Shown one piece after another: positions 1 through 46,350 of a DNA stretch of 47,035 bases. This stretch comes from Abditibacteriaceae bacterium. Its GTDB lineage: Bacteria > Armatimonadota > Abditibacteriia > Abditibacteriales > Abditibacteriaceae. The notes beneath the pieces were generated by a model that saw only the letters and a program-made list of their open reading frames with translations, was not told where the DNA came from and made no database searches. Made by a program: the position numbers and the translations under genes. How positions within the stretch are numbered: the first letter of the stretch is position 1; every line of letters starts with the position of its first letter. The DNA is taken from NCBI GenBank assembly GCA_031372065.1, contig JANMKN010000192.1:1-47035 (forward strand), given 5' to 3'.

Positions 1-430
1 TAAATCACGTTTAGCGTGCGCTAATTACGATTTAGCGTGCGCTAATTACGATTTAGCGTGCGCCAATTACGATTTAGCATGCGCCAATTACGATTTAGCG
101 TGCGCCAAACGTGATTTAGCGTGCGCTAAATCACGTTTAGCGTGCGCTAATTACGATTTAGCGTGCGCTAAATCACGTTTGGCGTGCGCCAAATGACTTT
201 TTTGCTTCCCCGAACAGTCGTCGGGCGCGCCAAATGACTTTTTCGGCTCCCAAAAATCACGTTTGGCGCGCCCGACGCATTTTTTTGCTCCCCGAAAAGT
301 CGTTGAGCGCGCCCGACGTGTTTTTTTGCTCCCAGAAAACGCTCCTCGCAGGCGCGAGGCCTTTTTTCGGAGCAAAAAAACGCGTTTCCGGCGGTCAACG
401 AGCTTTTGGGGAGCAAAAAAACGCGTTTCC
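1..430. repeat. Degenerate 21-bp tandem array A (runs off the window start)
   Basis: Nine near-identical units (t/c)aa-N7-tt(a/g)gc(g/a)tgcgc at 1-189, then degenerate alternating units. GGAGCAAAAAAACGCGTTTCC is exact at 369-389 and 410-430. Confidence 0.95.
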
Positions 431-605
431 CGGCGCTCTGCCCGCTTAATCCAATATACAAGAGGTCTGAATCATCTATGAATCGCGAAATTTTCGATGT
501 CATTTCGAATGCGAAACCCATCGCATTTTGGGCGGCGCCTTTCTCTTGTTCGAAGGCGGCGAAATGGCGGCGGTGCTGCAAATCGCCATGATGGGAAATT
601 TGCCT

Positions 606-624
606 TTGTAAACACTTGTAAACA
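606..624 (+). promoter_or_regulatory. Direct repeat, candidate transcription-factor site
   Basis: TTGTAAACA at 606-614 and 616-624 (10-bp period), about 55 bp upstream of the ATG at 678. Confidence 0.35.
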
Positions 625-677
625 GCGAATCAAAGGCGTAGTAAAATTATCCAATAGCAACAGTTTCAAGGAGAACC

Positions 678-1301
678 ATGCAAATTAAGAAATTTATCGT
701 CGTTTCGCTTTTGGCAGGCGCTTTGAGCCTTGGCGCTCAAGCGCAACCCAACGTCAATAACGGTCAGGCCGTTAATCCGCCGAATCAAGTGCCTTTTGGC
801 GGCCTAAACGGGCAAGATTGGCAAAAAATGACGCCCGAACAGCGTCGCGAAGCCATGCTCAAGATAACCGAGCAAATGCTGCGCGGTGGCATGGATATGT
901 TGAATGTCCAAGACAAAGCCACGCAAGATGCCGTTGTCGCCTTCGCGATTGAACAGGAAAAAGCCTTGGAGCCGGTGCGCGAAAAGCATCGCAAAGTGGC
1001 GCAATCGCTTATCAATAACGCAGTGACCGAGCAGCAAGTTGGTGCTTTAATGGAAGAATTGCGCGTCGCCGAAACCGAGGCGCGCGACAAACGAGGGAAA
1101 GACATTGACGCGCTGGAAAAACAAATTCATTTTTCACAAAAACCGCGTCTTTCGGCCTTGTTGTCGCTTTCAGGTTTGACTGGCGAACAAACTGGCTTTA
1201 TGAACGGCGTTTTGGGCAATATCATGGCGAGCATGGCGAATGTGCAAGCCAATGCCGCGCTGCCGAATTTACCCGCTGGGCCACCACGCGCGGCGAATTA
1301 G
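678..1301 (+). CDS. Secreted helical hypothetical protein (Spy/CpxP-like composition)
   Basis: AAGGAG RBS, Sec signal ending GAQA, Met/Gln-rich 'MTPEQRREAM' helical region. Confidence 0.8.
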   Translation: MQIKKFIVVSLLAGALSLGAQAQPNVNNGQAVNPPNQVPFGGLNGQDWQKMTPEQRREAMLKITEQMLRGGMDMLNVQDKATQDAVVAFAIEQEKALEPVREKHRKVAQSLINNAVTEQQVGALMEELRVAETEARDKRGKDIDALEKQIHFSQKPRLSALLSLSGLTGEQTGFMNGVLGNIMASMANVQANAALPNLPAGPPRAAN

Positions 1302-1320
1302 GTTGCTGACAGTGGAAAAA

Positions 1321-1349
1321 GTAGGGACGTGATTCATTCACGTCTCTAC
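1321..1349 (+). repeat. GTAG-type REP-like palindrome
   Basis: GTAGGGACGTGA-TTCAT-TCACGTCTCTAC, 12-bp stem with one G.U, just after the stop at 1301. Confidence 0.65.
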
Positions 1350-1426
1350 CATGATGGTCGTTGAGCTTTGCTTCTGGCGAAGAATTGAGCAAGAGTGCCC
1401 TGTCAAAAACATTTTAAACTGCAATT

Positions 1427-3871: not shown

Positions 3872-3881
3872 GGTAACTTGG

Positions 3882-4540: not shown

Positions 4541-4543
4541 ATT

Positions 4544-16446: not shown

Positions 16447-16631
16447 CATTATGTCTCTGATGCTATTTCGGGGAGGGAACCCCGCTACTTTTGTTGCTAA
16501 TACCAAAGTAGCTTTTGGCGTGTCTAAAAGGGTTTCGCCCCCCCCCACGAAATTTGCCAAATTTGCAGCATTCTGTTGACGAAAATCGTAAAAGTTAAAA
16601 AGCCGTCCGCGTTCGCGTGGGCGGCTTTTTT
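16447..16631 (+). ncRNA. Candidate structured non-coding RNA of about 185 nt, family not recognised
   Basis: Bounded by the promoter and a plus-strand terminator. Nested pairings GATGCT/AGCATT, ATTTCG/CGAAAT, G-run/C-run and GGAACCC/GGGTTTC enclose two hairpins. Confidence 0.5.
16597..16631 (+). terminator. Intrinsic terminator
   Basis: AGCCGTCCGCG-TTCG-CGTGGGCGGCT then a T-run. Two G.U pairs and the UUCG loop fit only the plus strand. Confidence 0.85.
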
Positions 16632-16655: not shown

Positions 16656-16864
16656 GAGTTTTCTGGATTTCTTCAAGAGAAATCCAGATTTCCCTTGAAG
16701 AAATCTGGCTGGTGCTTTGAGAAATCCAGATTTCTCTTTGAGCAATCTGGCTGGCGCTTTGGGAAATCTGGCTGGCGCTTCGAGCAAGCGACTTTCCCGA
16801 AAGGAAATCCGGCTTTCCCTTTGAGAAATCTGAATTTCCCTTGAAGAAAGCCGGATTTCTCTTG
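16656..16864. repeat. Degenerate 21-bp tandem array B
   Basis: Ten units such as GAGAAATCCAGATTTCCCTTG and GGGAAATCTGGCTGGCGCTTC; unit 16782-16801 is only 20 bp. Confidence 0.9.
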
Positions 16865-16942: not shown

Positions 16943-17053
16943 ATGAGTCACACCTCGGAAATCAGCATCCCCTACGGACGCAAGTTGGCCGATGCCGCCA
17001 TCACCACCATCCTCGCCCGTTTGGTGTTGGCATCTCGGTTTCCGTGTTTTTGA
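16943..17053 (+). pseudogene. 36-codon ORF with strong RBS, possible truncated gene or small protein
   Basis: AAGGAG at 16931-16936 then ATG; MSHTSEISIPYGRKLADAAITTILARLVLASRFPCF*. Too short for the ORF track. Confidence 0.4.
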
Positions 17054-28581: not shown

Positions 28582-29250
28582 TTAAGCCGTTGGTGTGGTG
28601 GTCGTCTTGGATTGCGGCGCGGCTTCGATGTCGGAGGCTGACTTCCATTCTCGCAAGGTTTGCTCGTCGTCCTCGAAAACGTTTTTGACGATGGCGCCCA
28701 AAGAACGCACGGCGCGTAGTCCGAGGCGCAATTGCGTTTCAATGGCGGGTGTCGCGCCGCTGCTGCTCTGGTCGCCTTCGTCCTGCTTGTCTTCGGCGTC
28801 TTGCACGTCTTTCTTGGCCTTGGTTAAACGCGTCAGAAAGTCGGCTTTCATGCCGTAGGCCACGAAATGCTGCGCTACGGGCGTGGCCTTGAGGATGTAG
28901 TTTTGCGCGGCGGTCAGCCACGTTTGCAGGTTGCGCCCGGAGGGCAGGGGGAAGTCGTCGGCGATGTCGGGCAGGTCGTCATCGAAGTCAATGGCATCGG
29001 CGGTGTCGTGCATCCGTTTCATGATTTTATACATCCGCTCGAACGCTGCGCCACTGGCTATCACAGCGCCATGCGCCGTGTTGGAACTGCCTTGCTGTTG
29101 CGGCGATAGCTCGTCAATACGCGTCACGCTTTGCGTGACTTTGGTCAACCACATTTGCCCGGCTGTGGGCAAGTCATCACCGTGCGCGTCGCCAAAAACC
29201 AGCACGCCACGCAACATATTGAGCCGTCTCCGGCTGTAATCGTCCATCAT
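28582..29250 (-). CDS. Uncharacterised all-alpha protein (222 aa)
   Basis: AAAGGAG RBS before ATG 29250; amphipathic helices, FPLP, FVAYGMKADFL, IVKNVF...W. The track extension to 29400 runs into array C. Confidence 0.85.
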   Translation of the reverse strand: MMDDYSRRRLNMLRGVLVFGDAHGDDLPTAGQMWLTKVTQSVTRIDELSPQQQGSSNTAHGAVIASGAAFERMYKIMKRMHDTADAIDFDDDLPDIADDFPLPSGRNLQTWLTAAQNYILKATPVAQHFVAYGMKADFLTRLTKAKKDVQDAEDKQDEGDQSSSGATPAIETQLRLGLRAVRSLGAIVKNVFEDDEQTLREWKSASDIEAAPQSKTTTTPTA

Positions 29251-32600: not shown

Positions 32601-33920
32601 GCCGGGCACATGATATAACCCGTGACGCGCCGCATCGGTATCGCGGCCCAAGTCGTCCATGCCGTCCCACCACGCCGTATTTTGCCCGGCGGGAAAGGGC
32701 GTGTTAGAAACTAAATTGCGCACGCGCGCGCCGTTTTTATCTTCGATCACTAAGGTGACAAAGCCCGCTTCGCGCAGTATGAATTTAATGGCAATCGGCG
32801 GATGTGATTCGTTTTTTACAACCGGCAAAAGCGCGGTTTGCAGCGGCGCATTGTCCAAGGGCTGCAACGCCAAAAGCTCGCCCAGCCACACGCGCTTGCC
32901 GCCGCTCGGTTTGTTGCGCACATGATCGTGGTCGGAAGTTGTTGGTTGTGTAATTCGGACACGAAGTGCGCGTGTGCTGTAGGTTTCGCCGAAATCAATC
33001 CAGTTGACGCCCAGACGCAGCGGATACCAGTTGTTGAGATTTTTTGCCGTAGTGATTGTTTTCCAATCGTCTTCTTTGGCTTCGTGTGGATGCTTGCTGG
33101 CCGCGCCGTTATAAACCTGAATTTGTGCCCCGGCAAAGCCGGCCCACAACGCGTTTAACCCGCGCAAATTCACCGGCGCAGGCCACATTAAAATCAGGGA
33201 TTCGGGATTGGTCTCCGAAACAATTTGCGCGCCGCCCTCGTTGCCATTATCCCAAGCGCTCCATGTGCCGTCGTTGCTTTCGTTATTGATTAGTGCAGCG
33301 GCTTCGTTGCGCTTGCTGGCTGTCGCAATCGCTTGCGGTGCGAGGTTGGCAAAGCGCTGCGCCAACACATAAACCCCGCCTAAAAGACCGGCGTAAGATT
33401 TATCGTTAAGCTGCGCCGTGTGCGTGAAGCGCAAGGCGCGCGTGGAAATAACCGCAGGAAAAACCCAGACACTATAACTTTCTTCATCGCCCGCTGCGCT
33501 GTTGATCTTGCCGTTGCTAATGCGCTCGGCACTCAGCCACTGCGCGGGGTTTCCCATGTCGCCAAAAGCGGCAGCGTTGTCTTTAAGGGCGCTGACGCGC
33601 ACATCGCCACGCACTAAAACCGAGCCAACTGGCACCGCATTTTTGAAACCGATGCGCGCATGGCGCTCGCCCGGCGTTTTGGAATCGCCGAAAGTCAGAC
33701 CTTGCCATTCGACGCGCGTATTTTGTGTCCAAATAAGGTCTTGCGCGCCTTTTTGCAGCAAATTCTCACGCGTTTCACGGCCATCGACCCAAACCGCCAA
33801 GGCTTCGGGCGCTAAATCCTCGCTTTTCAGCGGCGTTTGAAACGCGCCGCGCTCTTGTGAAAAAGCGGGCAGGCAAACCGTGACCAAAGCGAACAAAATC
33901 GCGCGTTGAAAAAATTTCAT
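29610..33920 (-). CDS. Large secreted protein: discoidin-like domains, FlgD-Ig-like, NHL/beta-propeller, CBM9/DOMON-like C-terminus
   Basis: AGGAG RBS and ATG 33920 (MKFFQRAILFALV); VTLVIEDKNGARVRNL...WDGMDDLG; GLALDAAGNIYISD; PQVDGDLSEW. Confidence 0.85.
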   Translation of the reverse strand: MKFFQRAILFALVTVCLPAFSQERGAFQTPLKSEDLAPEALAVWVDGRETRENLLQKGAQDLIWTQNTRVEWQGLTFGDSKTPGERHARIGFKNAVPVGSVLVRGDVRVSALKDNAAAFGDMGNPAQWLSAERISNGKINSAAGDEESYSVWVFPAVISTRALRFTHTAQLNDKSYAGLLGGVYVLAQRFANLAPQAIATASKRNEAAALINNESNDGTWSAWDNGNEGGAQIVSETNPESLILMWPAPVNLRGLNALWAGFAGAQIQVYNGAASKHPHEAKEDDWKTITTAKNLNNWYPLRLGVNWIDFGETYSTRALRVRITQPTTSDHDHVRNKPSGGKRVWLGELLALQPLDNAPLQTALLPVVKNESHPPIAIKFILREAGFVTLVIEDKNGARVRNLVSNTPFPAGQNTAWWDGMDDLGRDTDAARHGLYHVPGTFVLPGDYRVRGLMHPEINLRYEMSVYNAGNPAWETADKSGGWLTNHTPPSAALFVPATKTPTGKPLVYLGSYVAEGGAGLAWVDLEGRKQGGLGHVGGAWTGAPYMARDDGPNAIVDHVLYVAAVWESAKGPDTAELRLTAITKNGEKSVVKYEFKPADSKNMMQEISGLAARDGIIVVSLSGQKQLLFVNAKEGKVLDAAPLDDARGLAFDKWGHLLVLSKNQYSRFALSSNDLTRTSLPMIVIKSGLEDAQGLALDAAGNIYISDRGNSHQVKVFSPEGKFLRAIGKAGAPKAGPYDVLHMNNPRGVTVDENNRIWVAEEDFLPKRVSVWNSDGTLWKAFYGPAHYGGGGKLDPRDKTRFYYADEHGGGLEFRLDWNKGTDQLVNVFLRPEKRDPFEDAHFFAGPQDPIYLAGRQYMTNAFSSSPTNGAQVCQLWLLRDNLAVPVAALGSTRDIKLFEEPTFKTRWPQGVDANEFRRNPLLFAWSDLNGNGEPDAEEVTFQKAQTSGVTMMPDGAFIVSRVDDKTMRYAVQKYTAQGAPIYDLKAGEVLASGAQGENSSGGGQAIAGTNGWTLHYPPPQPYSQYSIGGTKNGVALWSYPNLWPGLHPSHEAAQRTFPGEIIGPTRLLGHIVTPKGEAGPLWALNGNMGNMYLLTQDGLFVDQLFEDVRGAPLWAMPIAKRGMKLNGLSLHDENFWPTITQTQDGQIYVVDGARTSLVRLEGLENIKRLPDQTLRLTKDDLTAAQNYFVQSEAARQATQGRGTLLVALRQNAPQVDGDLSEWNNASWADIDKRGMAANFNSNSKPYNVTGAVAIAGDKLFAAWQTGDKDLLSNTGESPNALFKTGGALDLMIAANPNADPKRAQPVEGDMRLLITQVKGKTKALLYRAVVPGTKDAVPFSSPWRTITLDKVDDVSDQVQLAGKDGNFEISIPLATLKLQPQNGQTLQGDIGILRGNNGQTTARIYWSNKATGITSDVPSEAMLTPNLWGQWEIK

Positions 33921-33936
33921 GTTGACTCCTACAATA

Positions 33937-33993
33937 ACCCCATCCCCAGCCCTTCCCCTTTGCCGTTTCAAGGGGAAGGGTTGGGGATGGGGT
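33937..33993. repeat. C-rich/G-rich palindromic intergenic element
   Basis: ACCCCATCCCCAGCCCTTCCCCTT, 9-nt loop, AAGGGGAAGGGTTGGGGATGGGGT; 24-bp stem with one wobble. Confidence 0.85.
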
Positions 33994-34002
33994 GTCGTTC
34001 TC

Positions 34003-37000
34003 TCACTCAAATTTCCAGTCGCCCCACGACTGCGGATACAGCCACGCTTCGAGCGGTTCATCGTTGACTAAATTGGTTTGCGTGTTCGACCAATAAGTGC
34101 GCGCCGTGTTGATAAGACCGGCGGCATCGGACGAAATGAAACCGACATCGCCGCGCACGCTTTGCCCTCCTTGCGGGGCCACGCCGATGTCTTTTAACGG
34201 CAAGGCGGCTTCGATGCGATAAAGGTTGCCTTGCTTTTTCACAACCACTTGCGCGCCCGTCAAGATTTCGACGCGCCCAAAATTTTTGGTGCCGACCGGC
34301 GAGGTATAACTTTTGGCTGCCCCGCTTTTCTCCAGCGGCGCCATGAGAACCGCGACAGGTTTGCCGTTTAATTGGGCAATCACGATGCGCTTATCGCCAA
34401 GCTGCGGGTCGTTGTGCGCTTTGCCGCCATTGCCGATTTGAATGTCCACGGCATCGCCGGTTTTGAAAAGGCGCGCGAAATCTTTGCCTTGGTTAAGCCA
34501 CGGCGTCGGGTCTTGCACTTCAAAGAAGGCATACAGATTGGTGGCATCGAAAGCGAGTTGCACCTTAGCGTTATCGGGCTGGCCGGTTCGCGCTATGGGC
34601 ATTTCCGGCACGTCTTTCCACTCGTCGTTTTCGCCGTTGATAACGGGCGCATTTGCCACGCGTTTGATGGTGTAAGTTTTCGCAATGGCTGCTTTTTGAT
34701 TGCGCGCCGTGTTGTCGGAAACGGCCTGCGCCAGTTGCGCGCCGCTAACTTTTAGAGTGCCACCTTCAAAGCGTTGAATGGTGTCCAAACCTTTGATTTC
34801 GAGAATCATTCCGGCCTCGCGCGCCATGCCGGTTGTCAGGCGAATTTTGCCGTCGTTTTGCTTGCCGAACCAACCGTTAAAAGGCTCGCCGCCTTCGCTA
34901 AAGCCTTCCATTGGCATCCCGCGCAGTTGTTCTTCGTTGGAGGGCAAGGCTTCGCCCGGCAAGCGGCCATCTTGAAACAACGCGCCGACAAAAAAGCCGT
35001 CGGTTGTCATTAAAAAGTCCTGCCCCAAATTGCCGCGCATCAAAAATACATTGCCAATGGCGTCGTTAATTTTGGCCACACCGCAGGTTTTGAGCGGGCC
35101 AACCAAAAGGCCCGGTTTGGGCATGGTGGCGTTGTGCGAACCATGCACGCCGGGAAACGGGTTCGGATAATACCATTGAACGGAGTTAGTTTTTAAATCA
35201 ATGGACGTTAATTTTGTCGGCCCGGCATAGCCATCCCAACTCAGGCAAATCAAGCGATCTTCGCCGGCAACCGGAACAAGGTCGCCGTTATCTTTAATGC
35301 CCAAATCGCTTTGGCCTGCCAGTCCATAAACCGGCGCGCCATCGGCTGTAAAACGCAGCGGGCGGTAACGGGTTAAACCATCGGCATAAATGCTAAAATC
35401 ATCGCCGATGCGCCCGCCCCAGCCGTTGTTAATTGGCAAAGCGGCCCTGCCGCCTCTGGTTTCGGTTCCGGCTTGCGCGGCGGGCACAATTTCGCATTCC
35501 ATGCGCTGCACTTTGCCATCGCCGTTTTGGTCATTCCAAATAATGCCGTCATAAGCATTAAGCCCAGCCAATTCGCCAGATGGTTGATACTTCACTTTGC
35601 CGCCGTTATGCTCGGTTTCGCCCGAAATGTGCAACGCCAAACAAATGGCCGCGACAGGCTGCCATTGACCGGCTTTTTCCATGAAAACCACATTGCCGGT
35701 GCCCGATTCGACATCGGGATCGTGCGCAAACATATATTCATGTGCTTGGCCGTTGATGGTGCGCGTAAAGCGCTGCGGAATGACATTGCTGGCCGTTGCG
35801 ATACCAAACGACTCGCCGCGCGTTTTGTCCGGCACCCACAGCACGCTTTGCAATTTCCATGTGCGATTTTTCTTGTCGAGCGCAAATTCCAGCGGCCCGC
35901 AATAAGCCAAATTCGCGTTTTGTTCATGCAAATAACACGAAGCGCCCGCATAGCCTGTGTTGCCCAAATAATCGCGCACGAGTCCATTACGATTCCACAC
36001 CGCCACGCGGCGCGGATAATCCCAACTTTCTACCGTCCAAACTTGATTTTTTGAGTCAACGGCCACCGAACTGAGATGCGAAAGCGCATTGAGATCATAA
36101 GCGCCGCGAATGGCGCGCCCGCCTTTGGTGCCGATGGTGTAAGTTGGCACTCCGTTGGGCGTAAAGGCCTTGATTTGGCTGTCTTTTCCAGCATCAGCAA
36201 TGAGTAAATTGCCGTCGCCATCAATAGATAATGCGACAGGTTTCTCGATGGTGGCAATTGTCGTTGCCGCGCCGTTTTGCAAATTGATTTCACAGGCTTT
36301 GTCGCCCAGCAAAGCGAATAATTTCCCGTTGCGATTAAAGGCTAATGATGTGGCATCCTGCGCATTGAACTGGTTGAGAACTTTGGCCGAAGTCGCGTCT
36401 AAAATCGCAATTTTTCCAGTGCCAAGCGACAGCGCGATTTTGCCGCCTTGCGCGGCGATGCTGTTGATTTCGCCGGAGTTTTCAATGCCTAAAATTTCTT
36501 TGAGTGGCAAGTCGAACGTGCGCTCTTTGCCGTCAAGGACAAACGGTTTTGTCGCGCCAGTTTTTAGGTCGAAGCGGCACAGCGTTTCGTTAACATACCA
36601 ACCCGTCACATAAGCGTAAGCATACTTTTCATCGGCGGCCACTTTGGAAACGCCGCGCCTGTCGGCCCAGCGCTTTTGGCCTGCCCTGTCAAGGCCAATG
36701 ATGCCGCTGCCGCCTTCGGCAAAGGGCCAAGTCACAATTGTCCAATCGCTGCCGCAGGCCACATTATTAGGGGCCGAATGGTCGGCGCCCCAACCGCCGT
36801 TTTGATTGGCTGTCGGCCACGGCGGTGTGCCGGGATTATAAAAGCACATTTCATATTCGGCGCCCAGCCCGCGATGCGTCAGGCCGCGCACGCGATAAGT
36901 GCCTGGCGCGGCTAATTTACCGCGATCATCCAAGCCATCCCATTTTACTTCCACGCTGCGCGTTTTGCCTTTTGAGGCAACGGCGTAGTCGGACGGATTG

Positions 37001-37932
37001 GCATCGGCGACTAATGTGCGAATGCGATTGCCTTTTTCATTTTCGAGAACAACCGTGAAACGCGCCGCCTCGATTGGCAAATTGACGCGTAGCGGGATGC
37101 TGCCTTCGACACGCGCATCGTCGCTGATATATTGGCGCGGCGCGATGTTTCCTTTACCGACAAGGCGCGCATCGCCCCACGAATCGCGCGCCGACCAATA
37201 AAACTCGCGCGAGGTTTTGCCCGGCTGCATATTATCGGCGTAGCGATGCGAGGGAAAAGTTTTGCCCGAAGGGTCACTCCACAAAAATTCGCTGCCCAAA
37301 CGAAACGTCAGATTCGGCGCGATAGTGGGCACCGTTTTGTAGAGCATCTTCCACGGAATTTTAATCTCCTGCACGAAGCCGTTTTTTTCGGGATTCGCGC
37401 GATAAAACATCTGCGCGCCCTGCCCCAAATCGCTGCCGCCTTCGGGCGCTACCAGCAAAGTAACATCTTGCCCGTCGCGTTCATTGTCCGGGTTTTTCCA
37501 GCGCGCAATGTGCAAAACCGGCTGTTTTTTTGTGGTGTAAAACCATGTCGTAATCCACAGTGGATGGTCGGTAAGAACCCGCATTTGCCATGCGTCTTCT
37601 TTCCAGCCTTCGTCGGGATTGTTGGCCGGATCAATCAAGCTAAACATCGGCGTCGGGTCTTTCCATTTCGCTGCGAGATACAAGTTTTCCTTGTCCCACA
37701 TCGCGGCGGTTTCAACTGAATAGCGCTCGCGCACGGCGCTATCGGCAAACACCCAAATGCGCCCCGAAAAATCCCACTCTTTCAAGTCGCCGTCAATTGT
37801 CACCGCGCCCGGCGCGGGCACTACAACCAGGCCCTCATTCTGACTTTGCCGCCCGATCATGTTCTCGGCAGCGTGCGATGAAAGCGCACACAACAAAACG
37901 GCGCCTATGCTCAAACTTTTGAAACTTTTCAT
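34003..37932 (-). CDS. Large secreted protein: CBM9-like, FlgD-Ig-like, beta-propeller, CBM9-like
   Basis: Signal peptide; VTIDGDLKEW...MWDKENLYLA; WDGLDDRGKLAAPGTYRVRGL; PVINGENDEW...FDATNLY. Confidence 0.85.
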   Translation of the reverse strand: MKSFKSLSIGAVLLCALSSHAAENMIGRQSQNEGLVVVPAPGAVTIDGDLKEWDFSGRIWVFADSAVRERYSVETAAMWDKENLYLAAKWKDPTPMFSLIDPANNPDEGWKEDAWQMRVLTDHPLWITTWFYTTKKQPVLHIARWKNPDNERDGQDVTLLVAPEGGSDLGQGAQMFYRANPEKNGFVQEIKIPWKMLYKTVPTIAPNLTFRLGSEFLWSDPSGKTFPSHRYADNMQPGKTSREFYWSARDSWGDARLVGKGNIAPRQYISDDARVEGSIPLRVNLPIEAARFTVVLENEKGNRIRTLVADANPSDYAVASKGKTRSVEVKWDGLDDRGKLAAPGTYRVRGLTHRGLGAEYEMCFYNPGTPPWPTANQNGGWGADHSAPNNVACGSDWTIVTWPFAEGGSGIIGLDRAGQKRWADRRGVSKVAADEKYAYAYVTGWYVNETLCRFDLKTGATKPFVLDGKERTFDLPLKEILGIENSGEINSIAAQGGKIALSLGTGKIAILDATSAKVLNQFNAQDATSLAFNRNGKLFALLGDKACEINLQNGAATTIATIEKPVALSIDGDGNLLIADAGKDSQIKAFTPNGVPTYTIGTKGGRAIRGAYDLNALSHLSSVAVDSKNQVWTVESWDYPRRVAVWNRNGLVRDYLGNTGYAGASCYLHEQNANLAYCGPLEFALDKKNRTWKLQSVLWVPDKTRGESFGIATASNVIPQRFTRTINGQAHEYMFAHDPDVESGTGNVVFMEKAGQWQPVAAICLALHISGETEHNGGKVKYQPSGELAGLNAYDGIIWNDQNGDGKVQRMECEIVPAAQAGTETRGGRAALPINNGWGGRIGDDFSIYADGLTRYRPLRFTADGAPVYGLAGQSDLGIKDNGDLVPVAGEDRLICLSWDGYAGPTKLTSIDLKTNSVQWYYPNPFPGVHGSHNATMPKPGLLVGPLKTCGVAKINDAIGNVFLMRGNLGQDFLMTTDGFFVGALFQDGRLPGEALPSNEEQLRGMPMEGFSEGGEPFNGWFGKQNDGKIRLTTGMAREAGMILEIKGLDTIQRFEGGTLKVSGAQLAQAVSDNTARNQKAAIAKTYTIKRVANAPVINGENDEWKDVPEMPIARTGQPDNAKVQLAFDATNLYAFFEVQDPTPWLNQGKDFARLFKTGDAVDIQIGNGGKAHNDPQLGDKRIVIAQLNGKPVAVLMAPLEKSGAAKSYTSPVGTKNFGRVEILTGAQVVVKKQGNLYRIEAALPLKDIGVAPQGGQSVRGDVGFISSDAAGLINTARTYWSNTQTNLVNDEPLEAWLYPQSWGDWKFE

Positions 37933-37941
37933 AAAAACCTT

Positions 37942-40900
37942 TTACTCTTGTGGCACTCCCGACAATCGCAGTTGCCATAAATTTGCTTCGTCGCCTTGCA
38001 AAACTAAACCGGCGCGGAATGGTGAATAGCCGGTGCAATAACCTCGCACGAAAACTTGATTCCACCCGGCCCGCAATGTTACTTTTTGCGAGGCGACGCG
38101 GCGCAAATCAGTTTCTTCTTTGTAGCTCTCCACCTTAAGGGCTTCACCGTTGAGAAACCAGCGCAAATAGGTTTGCGGGTGGCTTTGAAACTGGAATTCC
38201 AATTCCGTCGCGCGCGGTGCATGAATCCATGTGGCGCCATACCAAACCTCGGCGCCGCCAAAAGCAACGCGGGTATCAAGGTCGGCCACTTGCGCCGCTT
38301 TCCATTTCACCTGTCCCGGATCGTTCCAGTAACCGCGCACCAATTCGCCTTGATAAACCGCGTTCAAATCCACTTTGCCACCATCGGGCGGATAAGTGGC
38401 GGCTTCAAAAAATTCGCGCACGGCTCCTTTCATATCTTTATCGCTGCCGGGCATTTTTCCGTTGGGGTCGTATTTGAAATTCTCCGTGCCCGGCCCTCCA
38501 AAGGGCCCGCAAATTTGCCAGTTTTTCACGAGAATTCCCTTTTCTAAGCCGGCCCATTGCGCGGGCGCCCACGAGCCGGGATAAAGGCGCGCTTCGGTTG
38601 GCTCATCAAAAGTTTCGCGGCTGGCCGAGCCATCGCTGTTGGCCCACCAAAATTTATTGTGCCCGCCAAAAGTCGCCGAAAAATTGACCTGCGTTTTCAT
38701 TCCGCCCGACAGCGTTGGCAAAGCTGGAATCGCCGCGCGTGGAATCTCGGCCAGAAACACAAAACCTTGCCCATCGTCATCAATTTTGTGCGACAATTTC
38801 GCGCCTTCGATTGGCCCGGCGTGTGCAAACGCGGCCTCGCCAACCGGTGTGCGATAAATTTGCGGGCGCGCGTTTTTGCCCGTCCATGTCGGGTATAAAC
38901 CCAATGCGACAGGTTGAAGCGCCGCGCCGTTTTTGAATAATCCAAAGACAAAACGTGCATCGCCCGCGCGTCCTGCCACCGGCCCATTGGGTTTGGCGTT
39001 GGCATCGCCTTGAATATAAAAACTCAAGGTGTCGGCCTTTTGATCGTGTGTGAAAATGCGTTCGAGATTGGGCAAGTTTTTCGGCTCAAACTTCGTTGCC
39101 AACCGCGCGTGCCAGCGCAGCAAAAGCGCATCGGGCCGATACAAAGCGCGCACTTCGACGGTTTGTTTTTCATCGGCAGAAAACCTAATCGGTTCCGCTG
39201 ATTCCCAGCCATTCAGCGAACCATCAAAAGCCGGTTCGCCTAAAGCAGGCATCCACCGCGCGACTTTGGCAATGCCGGCACCGCCCCGCAAACTGAGCGC
39301 GATTTCCGGCGGCGCGGCGATTTGCGAGGCGCTAATCGTCACGCGTTTTTGCAGCATAGCCAGTGGTTTTACGGGGTTTTCTTTGTGCGACCAGCCTTGC
39401 GCTTCATAAAGCAGCGGCGTGTATTTGCCCAGCGCAAAATAAATTTGGTTGTTGTCTTTGTTGGGGTAAATGGCGCCCGCGAAAAATTCGCCCGGCTGTG
39501 GATACAATCCGGCGTTTTGCCCGCGACGCCCATCGGGAAAAATGGTGTCCACATAAAGTCCATCTTCGTTGAGAAGCAGAACTCCGCAGCGCGATTGATC
39601 TATCACGCCCAGCAAGCCATTAATCGGGCGTTGGATGCGCATGGCGCCATACATTTCGCCGTTTTTCGCAATGCCCTGCAAAGCGGTGCGACCTGTGCGC
39701 CATTTTAAGCGATAGCCGCCTTTGCCATCGGGAACGTAGCGCGAAATTTTATGCTGCGCGCCTTCGTTGGCGCTGAAATTTTTGCCGCCGCGCGCCTGAA
39801 TCCAAAAGCCTTCTGCTACGGAACCATCGGCGCCCATCCAATCACTGCTGAAGTTCTCTGCCAACTCATTGCCGCCGTGAATGGCGTCGGCTTTTCCCTC
39901 CGCGCGGGCCTCGAAAATCGGGTCAGTCAGCAGCTTTTTCCACGTTTTGAAAATCGGATTGCCCTGCGCGTCGAAACTCTCTGGCGCCAAATGCCATAAG
40001 GCTTGCCCGCCTTGGCCGAGCGCTAAAAACGAGAGGTCATCGAGCCAGTTTTGGCCGTGATAAATCAGCAGCGAGGCGGGCATTTCCGTAGGGGCGCTTT
40101 CGCCGTTATCCACGCGCCCGTTGCCATTGGCATCATGCCACAGCGCGTAGCTTGTCTTATTGCCCTTGCGCTCTTGCAAAATCGCGGCAGACAGCACGCA
40201 GCGCTCGTTTTCCAACCGGTAAACATTGAATGAGCGCCGTCCGCACAAATAAATTTTGCCGCCGCGCCGCACCAAGCGCACGCGGTCGAGAAGCGGCACG
40301 CGCGCTTCATCTTCCACGAAAGGCCACACTGCGTCCACTGTCCATAGGCGTTTTTCGTAATCTACTTTGAAGCGCGTCAGCCAGCCGCCGTGACCGGGCA
40401 AATAAACGTGTGAGGGGTTTTCGGGGTCAATCGCATAACCATCGTTGGCTTTGGTTTGCAGCGACATAAAATCGCGCACGAATTTGCCGTCGCTATTCCA
40501 TTCGCTGACACGATTCGGCCCGGCGTTTTCTACGATCAGCAAATGGTCTTCGCCTTGCGCATTTGTCCACGTCGCCAACTTGCCGGGCGCCATCAACGTT
40601 TCGCGATCATAAGTGCCCGGTTTTTGCGCGGCTAACCTGCCAAAGGTGCGCGTGATCTTGCCTTGTGCATCAAGCTGATAAACCTTGTTGGCTTTTTCGT
40701 CGCTGAGGTAAAAACGCCCGTGCGAATCGGCTTCCAAATCAAAGGGATTGATGTTTTGCGGCACGATAAAAACACGCCGCCATTCATTTTTCTCAACATC
40801 GGTTTCGCTGACTGCGAAGTCCTCGCCAGCTTTGTGTAAGACATACACTTTCCCGTTTTGCGCTGCCAAACCCTGCGGGCGCGGCAGCGATAACTCACGT

Positions 40901-41799
40901 AAAATCTTGCCGTTTTCGCCATCGTGGACAGTGATTTTATCTGCAAACTCCGTAGCGCTTTCGCCGAAGTCGTGGCCCGCTGTTTCGATGATTTTTTCGC
41001 GCTGGGCGACGAATACCACAGGTTTGTTATGGGCATCGCGGGCAACGGCCATTGCCGTTACCCAGCCTTCGGGGAGATAGGAATTGCTGCGATTGGCGCC
41101 TTCGCTTTTGCCGAACGATTTCCCATCGGTGCGATACACAAATTTCGGCCCGCCATCGGTGCTAAAACCCCATACTGTTTCGCCATCGGTTGTGGCACTG
41201 GTGCCGCCCGCCGCGCCGCCCGATGGGAAGGCGCGCATAAATTGTTCATAGCCGATTGGTTTTTTCAAATCAATTAAGGGCGCACCCAAACCATTTTCCA
41301 GATATTGATAATAAAAAACCGCCACGCCATTTGGCCCGACGGCCACATCGCGCAGCGGCGAACCCACCGGGTCGCCTCCAAACGGCTCCGGTTTATCGAG
41401 TTGTTCCGGCGCCGGCAACCACGAGGAAGCGCCGCCCACGAAACGCGGCGTGATGCTGTGCCATTCGTTATCCACCGGCCATTTTTTCGCGGGCATAAAA
41501 ATGCCTTTGACGGCATAATCGCCCGGCGGAACAGGCATAAAATTATCGTCGAGGCCATCCCACACTTCCGAAAATTTGCCGCCATTTTCTTTGGTTACCT
41601 TGCGCGCCGCGCCACAGGCGAACTGACTGATAATCCAATCGGGATTTTTCGGGTCAACAATCGCCAAGGTCACGCGATAGGTTTGCGGTAGCGGCCCGCT
41701 TGTTGGCAGTTGATAGCTGATGGGCACGCCGACATTATCAACTGCGTTTACGCTGCTGATAAATAGTAGAAACGCGACGAATAAATGTAAGTTTTTCAT
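37942..41799 (-). CDS. Large secreted protein: FlgD-Ig-like, beta-propeller, CBM9-like, extra C-terminal beta-sandwich
   Basis: Signal peptide; WDGLDDNFMPVPPGDYAVKG; DLEADSHGRFYLSD; PAFDGSLNGW; WQICGPF...VTLRAGWNQVFV. Confidence 0.85.
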   Translation of the reverse strand: MKNLHLFVAFLLFISSVNAVDNVGVPISYQLPTSGPLPQTYRVTLAIVDPKNPDWIISQFACGAARKVTKENGGKFSEVWDGLDDNFMPVPPGDYAVKGIFMPAKKWPVDNEWHSITPRFVGGASSWLPAPEQLDKPEPFGGDPVGSPLRDVAVGPNGVAVFYYQYLENGLGAPLIDLKKPIGYEQFMRAFPSGGAAGGTSATTDGETVWGFSTDGGPKFVYRTDGKSFGKSEGANRSNSYLPEGWVTAMAVARDAHNKPVVFVAQREKIIETAGHDFGESATEFADKITVHDGENGKILRELSLPRPQGLAAQNGKVYVLHKAGEDFAVSETDVEKNEWRRVFIVPQNINPFDLEADSHGRFYLSDEKANKVYQLDAQGKITRTFGRLAAQKPGTYDRETLMAPGKLATWTNAQGEDHLLIVENAGPNRVSEWNSDGKFVRDFMSLQTKANDGYAIDPENPSHVYLPGHGGWLTRFKVDYEKRLWTVDAVWPFVEDEARVPLLDRVRLVRRGGKIYLCGRRSFNVYRLENERCVLSAAILQERKGNKTSYALWHDANGNGRVDNGESAPTEMPASLLIYHGQNWLDDLSFLALGQGGQALWHLAPESFDAQGNPIFKTWKKLLTDPIFEARAEGKADAIHGGNELAENFSSDWMGADGSVAEGFWIQARGGKNFSANEGAQHKISRYVPDGKGGYRLKWRTGRTALQGIAKNGEMYGAMRIQRPINGLLGVIDQSRCGVLLLNEDGLYVDTIFPDGRRGQNAGLYPQPGEFFAGAIYPNKDNNQIYFALGKYTPLLYEAQGWSHKENPVKPLAMLQKRVTISASQIAAPPEIALSLRGGAGIAKVARWMPALGEPAFDGSLNGWESAEPIRFSADEKQTVEVRALYRPDALLLRWHARLATKFEPKNLPNLERIFTHDQKADTLSFYIQGDANAKPNGPVAGRAGDARFVFGLFKNGAALQPVALGLYPTWTGKNARPQIYRTPVGEAAFAHAGPIEGAKLSHKIDDDGQGFVFLAEIPRAAIPALPTLSGGMKTQVNFSATFGGHNKFWWANSDGSASRETFDEPTEARLYPGSWAPAQWAGLEKGILVKNWQICGPFGGPGTENFKYDPNGKMPGSDKDMKGAVREFFEAATYPPDGGKVDLNAVYQGELVRGYWNDPGQVKWKAAQVADLDTRVAFGGAEVWYGATWIHAPRATELEFQFQSHPQTYLRWFLNGEALKVESYKEETDLRRVASQKVTLRAGWNQVFVRGYCTGYSPFRAGLVLQGDEANLWQLRLSGVPQE

Positions 41800-41873: not shown

Positions 41874-42104
41874 GCAGCCACAAAATTGTTCATCGCAGCC
41901 ACAAAATTGTTCATTGCAGCCCGAAAACTGACGGTCGCGACGCCCGAACTGAGCTTTGCGACGGCAAAAATGAGCTTCGCAACGGAAAAACTGATGGTCG
42001 CAGCGGCAAAACTGGGCTTCGTAGAGCTAAAAGTGGCCTTCGCAAGCCGAAAACTGTTCATCGCAAAGGCAAAACTGATGATCGTAGAGCTAAAACTGGG
42101 TTTC
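41874..42104. repeat. Degenerate 21-bp tandem array D (11 units)
   Basis: Units such as GCAGCCACAAAATTGTTCATC, GCAACGGAAAAACTGATGGTC, GTAGAGCTAAAACTGGGTTTC in exact 21-bp register. Confidence 0.93.
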
Positions 42105-42764: not shown

Positions 42765-42821
42765 CACATTCGGCGGGGTAGCTTGTCGAACCAAGGGCGT
42801 GTGAGGCACGCTTCAAAACTT

Positions 42822-43736: not shown

Positions 43737-43749
43737 TCCGTTTCTTCGT

Positions 43750-44196
43750 TTATTGAGCGCTGAGTTCTATTTTGTTGGTGACTTTGGCTTTTGGCGCTTT
43801 TTTGCGGGCAATGGTTTCCGCTGTTTTCTTTTGCACAGCGGTTTTTACTTTGCCGTTGAGAATTACCGTGTCATTGGTCGTGCCGACGCTGATAGTGTGA
43901 CCTTTCATTGCCGGCGAAGCGTTCAGGGCTTTGAGAATATCTACGCCCATCGCTTGCGACATAGTCATCTTCACAGGTGCTTTAACGAGCGACGTTGGCT
44001 TGTCCTTGATTTTGACAGGTGCCGCACCATGTGGCGCGCCCGTGCTTTTGGGGGCGGCCAGTTTGCCATTGGACAGGGCGCCAGTGCCTGCGGTTGAAGG
44101 GGTAGCTGAACCCGTCGCGGTGTGGTCATTGCTTTTGTTGCAGCCGGTCAACGCCAAGAAAAGCGCGCCTCCGAGCAGATAATTGATTGTTTTCAT
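43750..44196 (-). CDS. BON domain lipoprotein
   Basis: Lipobox LTGC; ISVGTTNDTVILNGKV...AETIAR...VTNKI. Confidence 0.85.
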   Translation of the reverse strand: MKTINYLLGGALFLALTGCNKSNDHTATGSATPSTAGTGALSNGKLAAPKSTGAPHGAAPVKIKDKPTSLVKAPVKMTMSQAMGVDILKALNASPAMKGHTISVGTTNDTVILNGKVKTAVQKKTAETIARKKAPKAKVTNKIELSAQ

Positions 44197-44210
44197 ATTC
44201 AAACCTCAGT

Positions 44211-45152
44211 TTACGAAATGACCATGCTACCGCTCGAAGGGTGCGCCAGACGCCAATCTTCGAGCAGTTGATGGGTGTAATGTTGGCTCCAGCCGAGATA
44301 CAGCGCCAAGCCGATATAAAGCGCTGCTACTATCATGCGATTCGTCGGCGAGACATCGAAATAAGCGGTATCTTGCTTTTTCAGCGCGCCCCAAAAGCGA
44401 AAGGCGCCCAAAATCAAGATAATCAGCATAATCGGGCTGTGCGAATTCAGAAACCACACAAACAAGCCGACTAATCCCACGCCCCACAGCATCGGCGACA
44501 GCGCCGCCGTGATGCGCCCGCCATCCAAAGGCGAAACCGGCACCATGTTGAACAAATTAATGAGCAGCGCCGTGGTTGCCAAGGCCAAAAACAAGGTGTT
44601 GCCGGTCACATAATACAAGCCCCACACCGCCGTGGCGCCGATGGTGCCCAGCAGCGGGCCGCCATAGCCGATATAGGCTTCGGTCAGGGCATCGCGCGGA
44701 AATTCCTTGAGCGTAATCAGCGCGCCCATGCCGGGAATAAACATCGGCGCCGAAACGGGGATTTTCTTCCATTTGGCGGCGATGACGTGTCCCATTTCGT
44801 GAACGAAAATCAGCAGCACAAACCCAACGGCGAACTGATAGCCCCACGCCAGCGCGTAGAACCAGATGCTGACCAACATCGAAGCCATCGTGGTGAACAA
44901 CTTGCCGAATTTCAAAAACACCAAGGCACTTTTGAATTTGAACAGCATGGTGCCGAGTGCTGCTAAAAGGCCCCAGAAGCCGCCCTTTTTTTGTGGCTGC
45001 GCGCCGACATGAGTGGACTCGGTAAACACTGGCACTTGATGGAAAGCCGGATTGAAGGCCGGTGGCGGTGTGGGCGACGAAAAATCAAAAGACGGCGACC
45101 CCGCTGGTGCGGAAGGTTGCGCGTTTGGATTCTCAGGAGGAACAGGTTGCAT
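44211..45152 (-). CDS. Site-2 protease (peptidase M50)
   Basis: HEMGH, FIPGMGA, GGP, NLFNMVPVSPLDGG; multiple TM helices. Start ATG 45152 or TTG 45164. Confidence 0.92.
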   Translation of the reverse strand: MQPVPPENPNAQPSAPAGSPSFDFSSPTPPPAFNPAFHQVPVFTESTHVGAQPQKKGGFWGLLAALGTMLFKFKSALVFLKFGKLFTTMASMLVSIWFYALAWGYQFAVGFVLLIFVHEMGHVIAAKWKKIPVSAPMFIPGMGALITLKEFPRDALTEAYIGYGGPLLGTIGATAVWGLYYVTGNTLFLALATTALLINLFNMVPVSPLDGGRITAALSPMLWGVGLVGLFVWFLNSHSPIMLIILILGAFRFWGALKKQDTAYFDVSPTNRMIVAALYIGLALYLGWSQHYTHQLLEDWRLAHPSSGSMVIS

Positions 45153-45256
45153 GAAAAGGAACAACGATTTCTGACAGCGGCACGTTCGCGATATTACACA
45201 ACTTTTCGCAAATAAGACCTGCGCGAGCGCGGTGCTGACGTTAGATTATAAAGACA

Positions 45257-46189
45257 ATGACCAACGAAAATCAAACCCATTCGGACATTCCTGAAATCAA
45301 TTTCGAGCTTTTGCGCTCCCTGCCGCTGCCGACTTACGGCGATGAGGCCGACAAAATGACCAAAGCCGAGCGCGGCAAACTTTTAATCATCGGCGGTTCG
45401 GCTCGTTTGCCCGGCGCCGCGATTTTGGCGGCCCGCGCCGCTTTGCGGGCCGGTTGCGGCACGGTTCGCGTCGCCGCGCCGGAAAATGTGGCGCTTGCCA
45501 TTGGCATCGCCGTGCCCGAACTGATGGTGTTGCCGCTGCCCAGTAATGCCAAAGCTGCTTTGGCGCTGCTCGAAGCGCAAGTGGAGCCGTGCGATGCCGT
45601 TGTCATCGGCCCCGGCTTAGACGAAAATGCCGAAACTGATGCTCTCGTGCGCGGCTTTTTGGCGCTGTGCTTGCTGCCTGCCGTCGTGGACGCGCAAGCG
45701 TTAATTGCGCTGGGGCAAAGCAAAGAAAAGCCATCCGCGCCGCGCATTTTCACGCCGCACGAGGGCGAAATGGAGGCATTGACCGGCAAAACGCTCGGCG
45801 AAGACCACGCCAAAGCCGCGCTGTCTTTTGCCAAATCGCGCGGCGTGACGCTCGCGCTTAAAGGGTCGGAAACCTTGATTGCTGGGCCGGACGGCACAAT
45901 TTATCGCAACACCGCCGGTTCGCGCGCTTTGGGCACGGCGGGCAGCGGCGACGTTTTAGCGGGCATTATCGGCGGCCTTTTAGCGCAAAAAATGGATGCG
46001 ACAGCGGCGACGGTTTGGGGCGTTCATCTGCACGCCTTAACCGGCGAAGCCTTGGCGCAAGACATGGGCGACGACGGCATTTTAGCGAGTGACCTTGCCG
46101 CGCGCCTGCCAATGGTTTTGCGCTATGCTCGCAAACAAGCCGCGCCCACCACCGGCGGACGGCGTTACGGTTTGCGACCATCAGAATGA
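45257..46189 (+). CDS. nnrD: ADP-dependent NAD(P)H-hydrate dehydratase (stand-alone YjeF C-terminal domain)
   Basis: RGKLLIIGGS...GAAILAARAALRAGCG, IGPGL, VVDA, TPHEGE, LKG, TAGSGDVLAG. Confidence 0.92.
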   Translation: MTNENQTHSDIPEINFELLRSLPLPTYGDEADKMTKAERGKLLIIGGSARLPGAAILAARAALRAGCGTVRVAAPENVALAIGIAVPELMVLPLPSNAKAALALLEAQVEPCDAVVIGPGLDENAETDALVRGFLALCLLPAVVDAQALIALGQSKEKPSAPRIFTPHEGEMEALTGKTLGEDHAKAALSFAKSRGVTLALKGSETLIAGPDGTIYRNTAGSRALGTAGSGDVLAGIIGGLLAQKMDATAATVWGVHLHALTGEALAQDMGDDGILASDLAARLPMVLRYARKQAAPTTGGRRYGLRPSE

Positions 46190-46190
46190 A

Positions 46191-46350
46191 GCGCGTCGGA
46201 AGGCTCGTTTCGGAGTGAAACGAGCCTTCCAACGTGCTTGAAGGCCTCAAACCGGAGCGGTTTGGAGGCTGCGACCACGTCGGGAGCCTCTAACCGGAGC
46301 GGTTTGAAGCCTTCCAGCCCGTTTGGAGCCTCCAAACGGGCAAAAACGCC
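46191..46350. repeat. Palindrome-rich degenerate 21/42-bp array E
   Basis: 21-bp-stem hairpin at 46191-46237; GCCTC(A/T/C)AA recurs at 46244, 46286 and 46328; GCCCGTTTGGA-GCC-TCCAAACGGGC hairpin. Confidence 0.75.

What the first reader, a model, noticed from the sequence alone, without database searches (positions are those of the whole stretch)
1..46350. Five sequence-unrelated intergenic arrays share a 20-21 bp period and similar internal design
Seen: arrays A (1-430), B (16656-16864), C (29334-29601), D (41874-42104) and E (46191-46350) have no common consensus. All are intergenic, roughly 160-430 bp long, with a period near two helical turns, a fixed scaffold and variable positions. A, B and E alternate two unit types (41-42 bp superperiod) and contain palindromic half-units. 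A, B and C include 20-bp steps that break codon phase, which argues against protein coding. Inference: about one array per 10 kb with the same design but different sequence suggests a shared generating mechanism or function (phased protein-binding platform, recombination-shuffled array, or array processed into short RNAs). They do not fit CRISPR, REP or simple VNTR as I know them.
Basis: partly seen in the sequence, partly recalled or inferred. Interest (0 to 1): 0.8.

Follow-up and report, generated by a model that had tools for sequence, protein, structure and literature searches.

The report
Helix-phased DNA arrays with rod proteins
The five repeats are real, apparently non-coding copies of a DNA element found about 290 times in this genome, which when intact sits beside a gene for an unstudied, predicted rod-shaped protein; because the repeat's mirror symmetry tracks that protein's build, the protein likely coats its own repeat, one rod per two turns of the DNA helix.

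Summary
All five arrays are real and belong to a genome-wide class: 289 intergenic arrays on a 20/21- or 41/42-bp grid, against none in 400 kb sampled from each of two relatives. They share no sequence because each belongs to a different family of array + promoter + gene cassette. The genes encode an unnamed superfamily of 120-330-aa helical rods (some with an Fn3/Ig tail) under purifying selection. Here C is an intact cassette, B precedes a 26-codon stub of such a gene, and A, D, E are gene-less copies (A may be cut by the contig end). New here is a symmetry rule. One-module proteins (predicted antiparallel homodimer, 0.78 against control 0.00) have 21-bp units tending to palindromy; two-module proteins have asymmetric 21-bp or palindromic 41/42-bp units. 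It held out of sample (40 of 60 against 0 of 13; one family each). Related arrays also lie in frame in recG and a kinase linker, so arrays likely spread without their gene. Best reading: the rod coats its array as double-stranded DNA beside its own promoter; binding and purpose are untested. The scan noted this pairing before on other DNA; eight literature searches found no description.

The parts
1..430 (.). Array A: nine near-identical 21-bp units (10-198) running into a palindromic 41-bp (20+21) array (about 178-424). No rod gene follows it on this contig; it may continue past the contig start. The 41-bp part resembles arrays of two-module family f2 cassettes (C9, C14).
   Evidence: (dyad z 5.5 for the 41-bp part)
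16602..16631 (+). Terminator-like hairpin with T run just left of array B, shared with the paralogous array on contig C344
   Evidence: sequence
16656..16864 (+). Array B: nine 21-bp units whose half-units flip in place; array of a decapitated one-module (family f19) cassette
   Evidence: paralogous arrays on C373 and C344
16932..17053 (+). Ribosome-binding site plus a 36-codon ORF (ATG at 16943) whose first 26 codons are the N terminus of rod-protein family f19; the rest of the gene is missing
   Evidence: E=0.003 among 1867 RBS-ATG starts, the only hit after the three intact f19 genes; next hit E=2.5
28582..29247 (-). Intact gene of the cassette of array C: 221-aa two-module helical rod protein (family f5, P0001), no Pfam family
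   Evidence: 3678 clusters at 50% identity; AF2 pLDDT 95; dN/dS 0.29 against paralog C155
29334..29601 (-). Array C: about twelve asymmetric 20/21-bp units, 87 bp upstream of the rod gene
   Evidence: (dyad z about 0); relative on C329, 74% over 238 bp
41874..42104 (.). Array D: ten exact, asymmetric 21-bp units, gene-less; related to the array of the cassette on C251 (two-module by length)
   Evidence: z 0.4; 67% over 136 bp
46191..46350 (.). Array E: palindromic 42-bp-period array starting 2 bp after the stop of the NAD(P)H-hydrate dehydratase gene; gene-less; not found at the orthologous site of same-genus G001 and G002
   Evidence: (z 3.3)

Best explanation
The five arrays are copies of a dispersed array + promoter + gene cassette, and the gene's predicted rod-shaped helical protein likely coats its own array as double-stranded DNA, one two-fold rod per 21 bp. 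SHOWN: arrays are coupled to a superfamily of 120-330-aa helical proteins; period and symmetry follow the protein family while the letters do not persist; the genes are under purifying selection; paralogous cassettes are homologous from the array to the stop codon; gene-less arrays include ones followed by a gene stub (B) and ones homologous to cassette arrays at unrelated sites, two of them in frame inside ordinary genes. PREDICTED: a module is a short helix, a 54-61-residue helix and a short helix; a one-module protein forms an antiparallel homodimer, and a two-module protein would be the same rod in one chain. INFERRED: a symmetric dimer favours palindromic 21-bp units; an asymmetric pseudo-dimer allows direct 21-bp repeats (head to tail) or palindromic 41/42-bp units (head to head); readout is mostly spacing and symmetry with weak sequence preference; coating next to the -35 box would regulate the cassette's own promoter; the cassette behaves as a self-recognising, semi-selfish unit without an enzyme of its own, so host recombination would have to move it.
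For: Coupling: 53 of 59 family genes with at least 400 bp upstream have an array against 58 of 1111 other genes (partly circular, families were found beside arrays). Non-circular: 60 of 79 GTDB loci of one-module family f37, with record titles from at least seven phyla, have an upstream array against 1 of 78 downstream, period 21 in 58 of 60 (best 80 of 194 loci); 9 of 19 metagenome loci of the family of gene C against 0 of 15 downstream (20 of 23 loci used, 3 partial matches dropped). Symmetry rule, modules assigned before scoring: one-module/21 bp median dyad z 1.8 (n=26); two-module/21 bp median -0.25, 0 of 28 at z>=2.5; two-module/41-42 bp 11 of 15 at z>=2.5; family level 7 against 8 families p=0.0006. 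Out of sample 40 of 60 against 0 of 13 at z>=1.5. Models: P0001 helices 3-25, 28-88, 107-130, 137-190; f37 helices 11-26, 39-92, 97-101. f37 homodimer score 0.78, best of 3 controls 0.00, runs agree in at least 94% of contacts, pLDDT at least 85, antiparallel register; that mark was reached by 20 of 30 solved pairs and 1 of 23 single chains. Invariant R8, R67, K105 and a basic tail in f37. dN/dS 0.16-0.37 in 11 of 11 paralog pairs. Where a strong sigma-70-like promoter was found (24 of 61 and 27 of 60 cassettes) it lay after the array in 19 and 17, often within 35 bp of the array end (no positional control). In-frame arrays in recG and a hybrid kinase linker are homologous to other arrays, and the period is weak or missing in the orthologs read.
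Against: No DNA binding was tested or modelled. The family of gene C has median net charge 0. Only 2 of 7 copies of that family in related genomes have an array, and 10 of 19 metagenome loci lack one at the threshold, so the gene can persist without it. Exceptions to the symmetry rule: one-module family f6 is barely symmetric (median z 0.35), C190_28665 is one-module with an asymmetric 42-bp array, and 20 of 60 f37 arrays have z<1.5. Two modules are confirmed by internal repeat for f2, f10, f12, f17 and by model for f5, but only by length for f13, f15, f36 and the singletons. The out-of-sample test compares one family with one family, and many f37 loci are kin. Arrays lie just downstream of the gene in 6 of 7 f7 members and between promoter and start in L063-L065, so a simple upstream operator does not cover all cases. 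The f37 family motif is weak (16 of 61 arrays against about 4 expected; best of 300 random patterns 9-10). No target duplication, terminal repeat or linked enzyme explains the spread.
Confidence: 0.6

Rival explanations
1. The array works as RNA: it is transcribed into a repeat RNA that the rod protein binds or that is cut into 21/42-nt pieces, in the manner of a type III toxin-antitoxin pair.
For: Palindromic units would form hairpins. Some arrays lie in the predicted transcript (downstream in 6 of 7 f7 genes; between promoter and start in L063-L065). A terminator-like hairpin flanks B.
Against: The period is 20/21 or 41/42, two or four DNA turns, across unrelated sequences. In 36 of 51 cassettes with a strong promoter call it lies after the array. 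Two-module 21-bp arrays have no dyad symmetry (0 of 28). No Rfam match in the window at gathering score.
Confidence: 0.12
2. DNA-as-antidote or defence: the array sequesters or represses a harmful rod protein, which is released when host DNA is degraded or the array is lost; gene-less arrays are spare sponges.
For: Asymmetry in this genome: 53 of 59 genes keep an array, while 218 of 289 arrays have no recognised gene. Purifying selection, many divergent families and patchy distribution. Among 92 neighbouring proteins of f37 loci, 11 are TPR proteins and 4 are restriction/methylase-type.
Against: 5 of 7 copies in relatives have no array. No catalytic or membrane domain is recognised in the proteins. 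Most annotated neighbours are ordinary metabolic genes (no background rate measured).
Confidence: 0.12
3. The arrays are a by-product: the protein, or another host factor, imposes a 21-bp slippage or recombination register on nearby DNA, so arrays arise and homogenise locally and have no function.
For: No common sequence; very fast turnover; half-units flip in place; in A one half of a 41-bp unit was amplified into a 21-bp run. The recG linker of G001 has a short stretch resembling the repeated peptide.
Against: Arrays at new sites are copies of arrays elsewhere (recG array 67% over 136 bp to the f6 cassette on C118; gene-less arrays 86-89% identical to cassette arrays), not local amplifications. 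The symmetry still follows protein architecture, which requires contact between protein and array in any case.
Confidence: 0.12
4. The arrays encode heptad-repeat peptides (21 bp = 7 codons).
For: B, D and E have open frames; 148 of 188 arrays of at least 150 bp have at least one open frame.
Against: 20- and 41-bp periods occur (47 of 188 arrays have a period not divisible by three); 40 of 188 have no open frame; A and C have stops in all six frames; variation shows no codon phase (0.475 against null 0.481, n=146).
Confidence: 0.03

Closest known systems
REPIN/RAYT non-autonomous mobile repeats (PMC3116915, abstract read)
   Same: Hundreds of extragenic repeats in several sequence groups, each group tied to its own nearby gene; lineage-specific expansion; copies without the gene; often close to 3' ends.
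   Different: Units are tandem on a 21-bp grid, not REP doublets; about 215 sequence clusters among 343 arrays; the linked gene is a helical rod, not a tyrosine transposase.
Plasmid centromere/operator arrays and their binding proteins: omega2 of pSM19035 (PMC4627068, abstract read), ParR/parC and SopB/sopC (recalled)
   Same: A small dimeric protein encoded beside tandem direct or inverted repeats at its own promoter; array occupancy could regulate transcription. This is what the system most likely works like.
   Different: Chromosomal and multicopy; no partner ATPase among neighbours; predicted 54-61-residue helices without the strand of a ribbon-helix-helix; period fixed while sequence is free; no hit in plasmid or phage collections.
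BrickBuilt MITE of Porphyromonas gingivalis (PMC4596501, abstract read)
   Same: Intergenic, spacer-less tandem repeat of similar unit length (23 nt) dispersed in one lineage, with promoter activity nearby.
   Different: One sequence in 19 copies with leader, tail and inverted-repeat ends; here many sequences, no shared ends seen, and a linked protein family.
Nostoc small dispersed repeats of about 21 nt (Elhai 2008; recalled, paper not held)
   Same: Units of about 21 bp that are also found in frame inside genes.
   Different: As I recall them, mostly single inserted units with no linked protein superfamily.
DUF6261 (PF19775)
   Same: Helical proteins of similar length; nearest named cluster in the Atlas (score 0.88, 32% of members), a lead only.
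   Different: No Pfam match at E<=0.01 for any of 21 representatives; the two papers naming DUF6261 (search listing only) give no sign of arrays.

Membership tests
CRISPR array | Conserved repeat alternating with unique spacers | tested here: not met
   Units are contiguous and similar over their whole length; no Rfam match in the window
CRISPR array | Adjacent cas genes | tested here: not met
   No cas family among 36 window ORFs or 92 neighbours of f37 loci; genome-wide cas content not tested
REP/REPIN-RAYT | A few conserved palindromic sequence groups, each in many copies | tested here: not met
   343 arrays fall into about 215 clusters, the largest with 9 members; many arrays are not palindromic
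REP/REPIN-RAYT | Linked HUH (Y1) transposase | tested here: not met
   Linked genes are helical rods; a motif scan found 2 Y1-like genes in the genome, 1 near an array
REP/REPIN-RAYT | Non-autonomous dispersal of the repeat | tested here: inconclusive
   Gene-less copies 86-89% identical to cassette arrays, and in-frame copies in two genes; no transposition intermediate or empty site to the base was seen
MITE (BrickBuilt type) | Terminal inverted repeats or conserved leader/tail and target duplication | tested here: inconclusive
   None visible by eye in 9 cassette pairs and 18 close pairs; homology ends at variable places; copies may be too old
Plasmid centromere/operator systems (omega/parS, ParR/parC) | Tandem repeats beside the promoter of the gene for a dimeric protein | tested here: met
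   dimer predicted
Plasmid centromere/operator systems (omega/parS, ParR/parC) | Ribbon-helix-helix or helix-turn-helix DNA-binding fold | tested here: inconclusive
   Models show only long helices and no strand; fold searches gave generic helical bundles, which does not exclude a family
Plasmid centromere/operator systems (omega/parS, ParR/parC) | Partner ATPase/GTPase gene in the same locus | tested here: not met
   None among 92 of 148 candidate neighbours scanned, nor next to the window arrays
Plasmid centromere/operator systems (omega/parS, ParR/parC) | Protein binds the repeats | not testable with these tools
   Needs EMSA, footprinting or a protein-DNA structure
Type III toxin-antitoxin (ToxIN and kin) | Promoter - repeat array - terminator - RNase toxin gene, co-transcribed | tested here: not met
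   Promoter call lies after the array in 36 of 51 cassettes; no toxin family in Pfam or NCBIfam for 21 representatives
DUF6261 (PF19775) | Match to the Pfam model | tested here: not met
   0 of 21 representatives at E<=0.01; Atlas lead only

The most novel reading that the evidence does not exclude
A widespread, undescribed class of DNA-coating proteins: enzyme-less helical rods that read DNA by helical spacing and two-fold symmetry rather than by sequence, each family co-evolving with its own phased array, with the array acting as a self-recognition site that lets the cassette, or the array alone, multiply to hundreds of copies or that keeps a defensive effector in check.
Probability: 0.35. 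Interest if true: 0.9.

Novelty: categorically new. Interest (0 to 1): 0.74.

Why it matters
The pairing spans at least seven phyla, and one family alone has 3678 protein clusters at 50% identity, yet the rod domain has no family name and no solved fold, and I found no paper on it. If the rods coat their arrays, this is a new mode of DNA recognition (a coiled-coil ruler of two helical turns) and a new kind of dispersed repeat that fills about 1% of this genome, lands beside promoters and inside genes, and uses no transposase of its own. The symmetry rule turns a vague resemblance into a cheap, direct experiment with orthogonal protein-array pairs.

Tried and rejected
Fold searches: Foldseek gave no match at E<=0.001; VIA best Z 10.4 (rmsd 2.8-3.3, about 180 aligned, generic helical bundles 4e40 and 2yfa), below the level the tool calls meaningful for bundles; f37 best Z 5.5. 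Pfam and NCBIfam: only fn3 in 2 of 21 representatives and sub-threshold hits. No relative in plasmids or phages for P0025 or in viral contigs for f37. A GTDB scan with P0007 found nothing; two alignments were too variable to scan with. Expression: no RNA holder listed. The earlier two-way rule 'period doubles when the module doubles' is rejected: f10 and f17 have confirmed internal duplications and 20/21-bp arrays; it holds mostly one way (15 of 17 arrays with 41/42-bp period sit by two-module genes). A search for gene remnants beside the 218 unlinked arrays found 3 (C98, C233, C298) plus B; the control set was contaminated by real family genes and is not used. A 260-bp palindromic element is not clearly enriched at arrays (11 of 29 against 241 of 877). 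No 7-bp or 10.5-bp substructure in unit variability or AT content, so intrinsic A-tract curvature is not supported. Literature searches without a describing paper: (listings only); the library lacks most subscription papers; no supplements were read.
Full report
OBSERVATION. Segmentation gives 20, 9, 12, 10 and 7 units for A-E; A and C carry net 20-bp steps, B and E a compensated 20+22, D none. The window is contig C321 of a 6.14-Mb, 410-contig genome; an earlier scan note calls the lineage Armatimonadota, which I did not test. Tandem Repeats Finder over the genome peaks at periods 21 (458 rows), 42 (189), 63 (107), 20 (65) and 41 (44). With a crude dicodon gene call (4854 genes, 86% coding) 343 of 438 arrays of this class are intergenic; merging neighbours gives 289 of at least 60 bp, about 54 kb. 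A lag scan finds 212 intergenic regions at lag 21 and none at 16, 17, 19, 23 or 25. The same scan finds 23.5 regions per 400 kb here, but 1 and 4 in 400 kb each of relatives G002 and G009, all low-complexity coding repeats by eye; array E is not at the orthologous site in G001 or G002. Contigs of the probable source run reproduce C, D, E and most of A without a difference. The arrays look non-coding: no codon phase in the variation (0.475 against 0.481, n=146), 40 of 188 without any open frame, 47 of 188 with periods not divisible by three.

THE MISSING HALF: A GENE. Clustering the neighbours of all arrays showed small families found almost only beside arrays. I collected 13 families and 12 further genes or fragments, 90 entries of mostly 120-330 aa, partly linked to each other by profile search. 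53 of 59 with enough flank have an array upstream, against 58 of 1111 other genes (circular in part); family f7 has it just after the stop in 6 of 7. Two non-circular tests agree: 9 of 19 metagenome loci of the family of gene C against 0 of 15 downstream flanks, and 60 of 79 GTDB loci of family f37 against 1 of 78, with period 21 in 58 of 60 and unrelated letters, in records titled Pseudomonadota, Chloroflexota, Acidobacteriota, Verrucomicrobiota, Bacteroidota, Cyanobacteriota and Clostridia. Against universality: only 2 of 7 copies of the C family in related genomes have an array. The genes are conserved (dN/dS 0.16-0.37, 11 pairs). Paralogous cassettes are homologous from within or at the left end of the array to the stop codon, without visible terminal repeats or target duplications. 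Neighbours of f37 loci are mixed, with one DDE transposase and no recurring recombinase, reverse transcriptase or partition ATPase among the 92 of 148 candidates scanned.

THE WINDOW RE-READ. C lies 87 bp upstream of an intact 221-aa gene on the minus strand (P0001). B is followed by a ribosome-binding site and an ORF at 16943 whose first 26 codons match the start of family f19 (E=0.003 among 1867 RBS-ATG starts, next 2.5): a decapitated cassette. The 41-bp part of A resembles f2 cassette arrays, D resembles the C251 cassette array, and E resembles only other gene-less 42-bp arrays. Genome-wide, 71 of 289 arrays are next to a recognised rod gene and 218 are not (52 of these within 500 bp of a contig end); 86 of the 218 share at least six 10-mers with a linked array (no null computed). 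Gene-less arrays favour convergent gaps (43 of 169 against 141 of 1122 gaps of at least 200 bp). Two routes are visible: decay (B, plus remnants on C98, C233, C298) and copying without the gene. Close gene-less copies are 86-89% identical to cassette arrays, one of them ending just before the ribosome-binding site. Two arrays sit in frame in variable linkers of recG and of a hybrid kinase; they are homologous to other arrays of this genome (67% over 136 bp to the f6 cassette; 64% over 193 bp to C243), and the orthologs read have lag-21 scores of 0.33-0.55 against 0.75 and 0.87.

THE PROTEIN. The family of gene C has 3678 clusters at 50% identity, an invariant Trp and several conserved Arg/Lys but no catalytic motif, and no Pfam or NCBIfam family. 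AlphaFold2 (pLDDT 95) gives two modules, each a short helix, a 54-61-residue helix and a short helix; f37 is one such module. Fold searches return only generic bundles. Two copies of f37 are predicted to form an antiparallel dimer (score 0.78, best control 0.00; contacts 63-63, 59-66, 73-49; runs agree in at least 94% of contacts, pLDDT at least 85; the mark is reached by 20 of 30 solved pairs and 1 of 23 single chains). A helix of 54-61 residues is about 80-90 A long and 21 bp of B-DNA about 71 A (standard values, my arithmetic), so one rod per unit is geometrically reasonable.

THE SYMMETRY RULE. Earlier scan notes proposed that the period doubles when the module doubles. I tested this and it fails in one direction: f10 and f17 have clear internal duplications (hhalign probability 98 and 97) and 20/21-bp arrays. 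What holds is a rule on symmetry. With module number assigned by length and domain content before scoring, the dyad symmetry of the unit against column-permuted controls was: one-module, 21 bp, median z 1.8 (n=26); two-module, 21 bp, median -0.25 and 0 of 28 at z>=2.5; two-module, 41/42 bp, 11 of 15 at z>=2.5; one-module, 42 bp, 2 cases. By family, 7 against 8, p=0.0006 (families are related, so this overstates). Out of sample, 40 of 60 f37 arrays reach z>=1.5 against 0 of 13 arrays of the two-module family. This is what a two-fold protein on double-stranded DNA predicts: a homodimer sees the same half-site twice, a fused pseudo-dimer need not, and head-to-head pseudo-dimers give a palindrome of twice the length. 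In the window C, D (asymmetric, two-module kin), the 41-bp part of A and E (palindromic) fit; B has palindromic half-units but scores only z 0.9 on its strict segment. Sequence preference within f37 is weak. A strong sigma-70-like promoter, where found, mostly lies after the array and often abuts it, which suits autoregulation, but arrays in the leader or after the stop show that position is flexible.

VERDICT. Shown: real arrays, coupling to an unnamed rod-protein superfamily, family-specific period and symmetry, selection on the genes, gene-less and in-frame copies. Predicted: rod fold and dimer. Inferred: DNA coating (about 0.6), and with less confidence autoregulation and semi-selfish spread by host recombination. 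Rivals are an RNA role, an antidote/defence role, a by-product of protein-imposed slippage, and coding heptads. It works like a plasmid centromere/operator array with its binding protein and spreads like REPINs, but it fails a defining feature of each. Papers: abstracts of PMC3116915, PMC4596501 and PMC4627068 and passages of PMC12418385, which reports general enrichment of tandem repeats in prokaryotic intergenic DNA but has no occurrence of 'helical' or '21 nucleotides' in its main text; eight searches gave no description, within a library that lacks most subscription journals. The scan has recorded the array-gene pairing in this and other genomes; those notes are leads, not support, and a word search for the symmetry and insertion points returned none.

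Noticed in passing
L208 (G000:C373:6708-6985) and L207 (G000:C216:16720-17060): 21-bp arrays in frame in the N-terminal linker of recG and in the receiver-Hpt linker of a hybrid histidine kinase; homologous to intergenic arrays, period weak or missing in orthologs.
   Followed up: yes
G000:C96:11630-11891 and 28 further copies of at least 150 bp: A separate, nearly fully palindromic element of about 260 bp (long hairpin, -152 kcal/mol), MITE- or REPIN-like; not clearly enriched at arrays.
   Followed up: partly
G000 genome-wide: 123 short intergenic runs with 7- or 14-bp period (median 34 bp), of varied sequence, apparently a separate class.
   Followed up: partly
L036, L037, L042 (G012, G009, G004): An array-less copy of the rod gene at a shared position, divergent from a gene that reads like fabH (my reading, no family search): possibly a domesticated member.
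   Followed up: no
window 29610-41799 (-): Three tandem paralogs of 1285-1480 aa, two with FlgD-Ig and one each with NHL or CBM9 matches, bracketed by arrays C and D.
   Followed up: no
G000:C404:2903-3106, C403:3768-3933, C73:237-387, C313:15371-15503: Genuine coding heptad repeats in large secreted-type proteins, with synonymous variation and no tie to the intergenic arrays.
   Followed up: partly
L095, L102, L106, L115, L121, L126, L136, L146, L158, L162: f37 cassettes directly downstream of genes ending in long TPR repeats, mostly in Acidobacteriota records; may reflect shared ancestry or a preferred site.
   Followed up: no
G000:C150:179-382, C3, C336, C172, C382: Array family with a 103-105-bp superperiod and conserved flanks of 100-170 bp, no recognised rod gene.
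   Followed up: no
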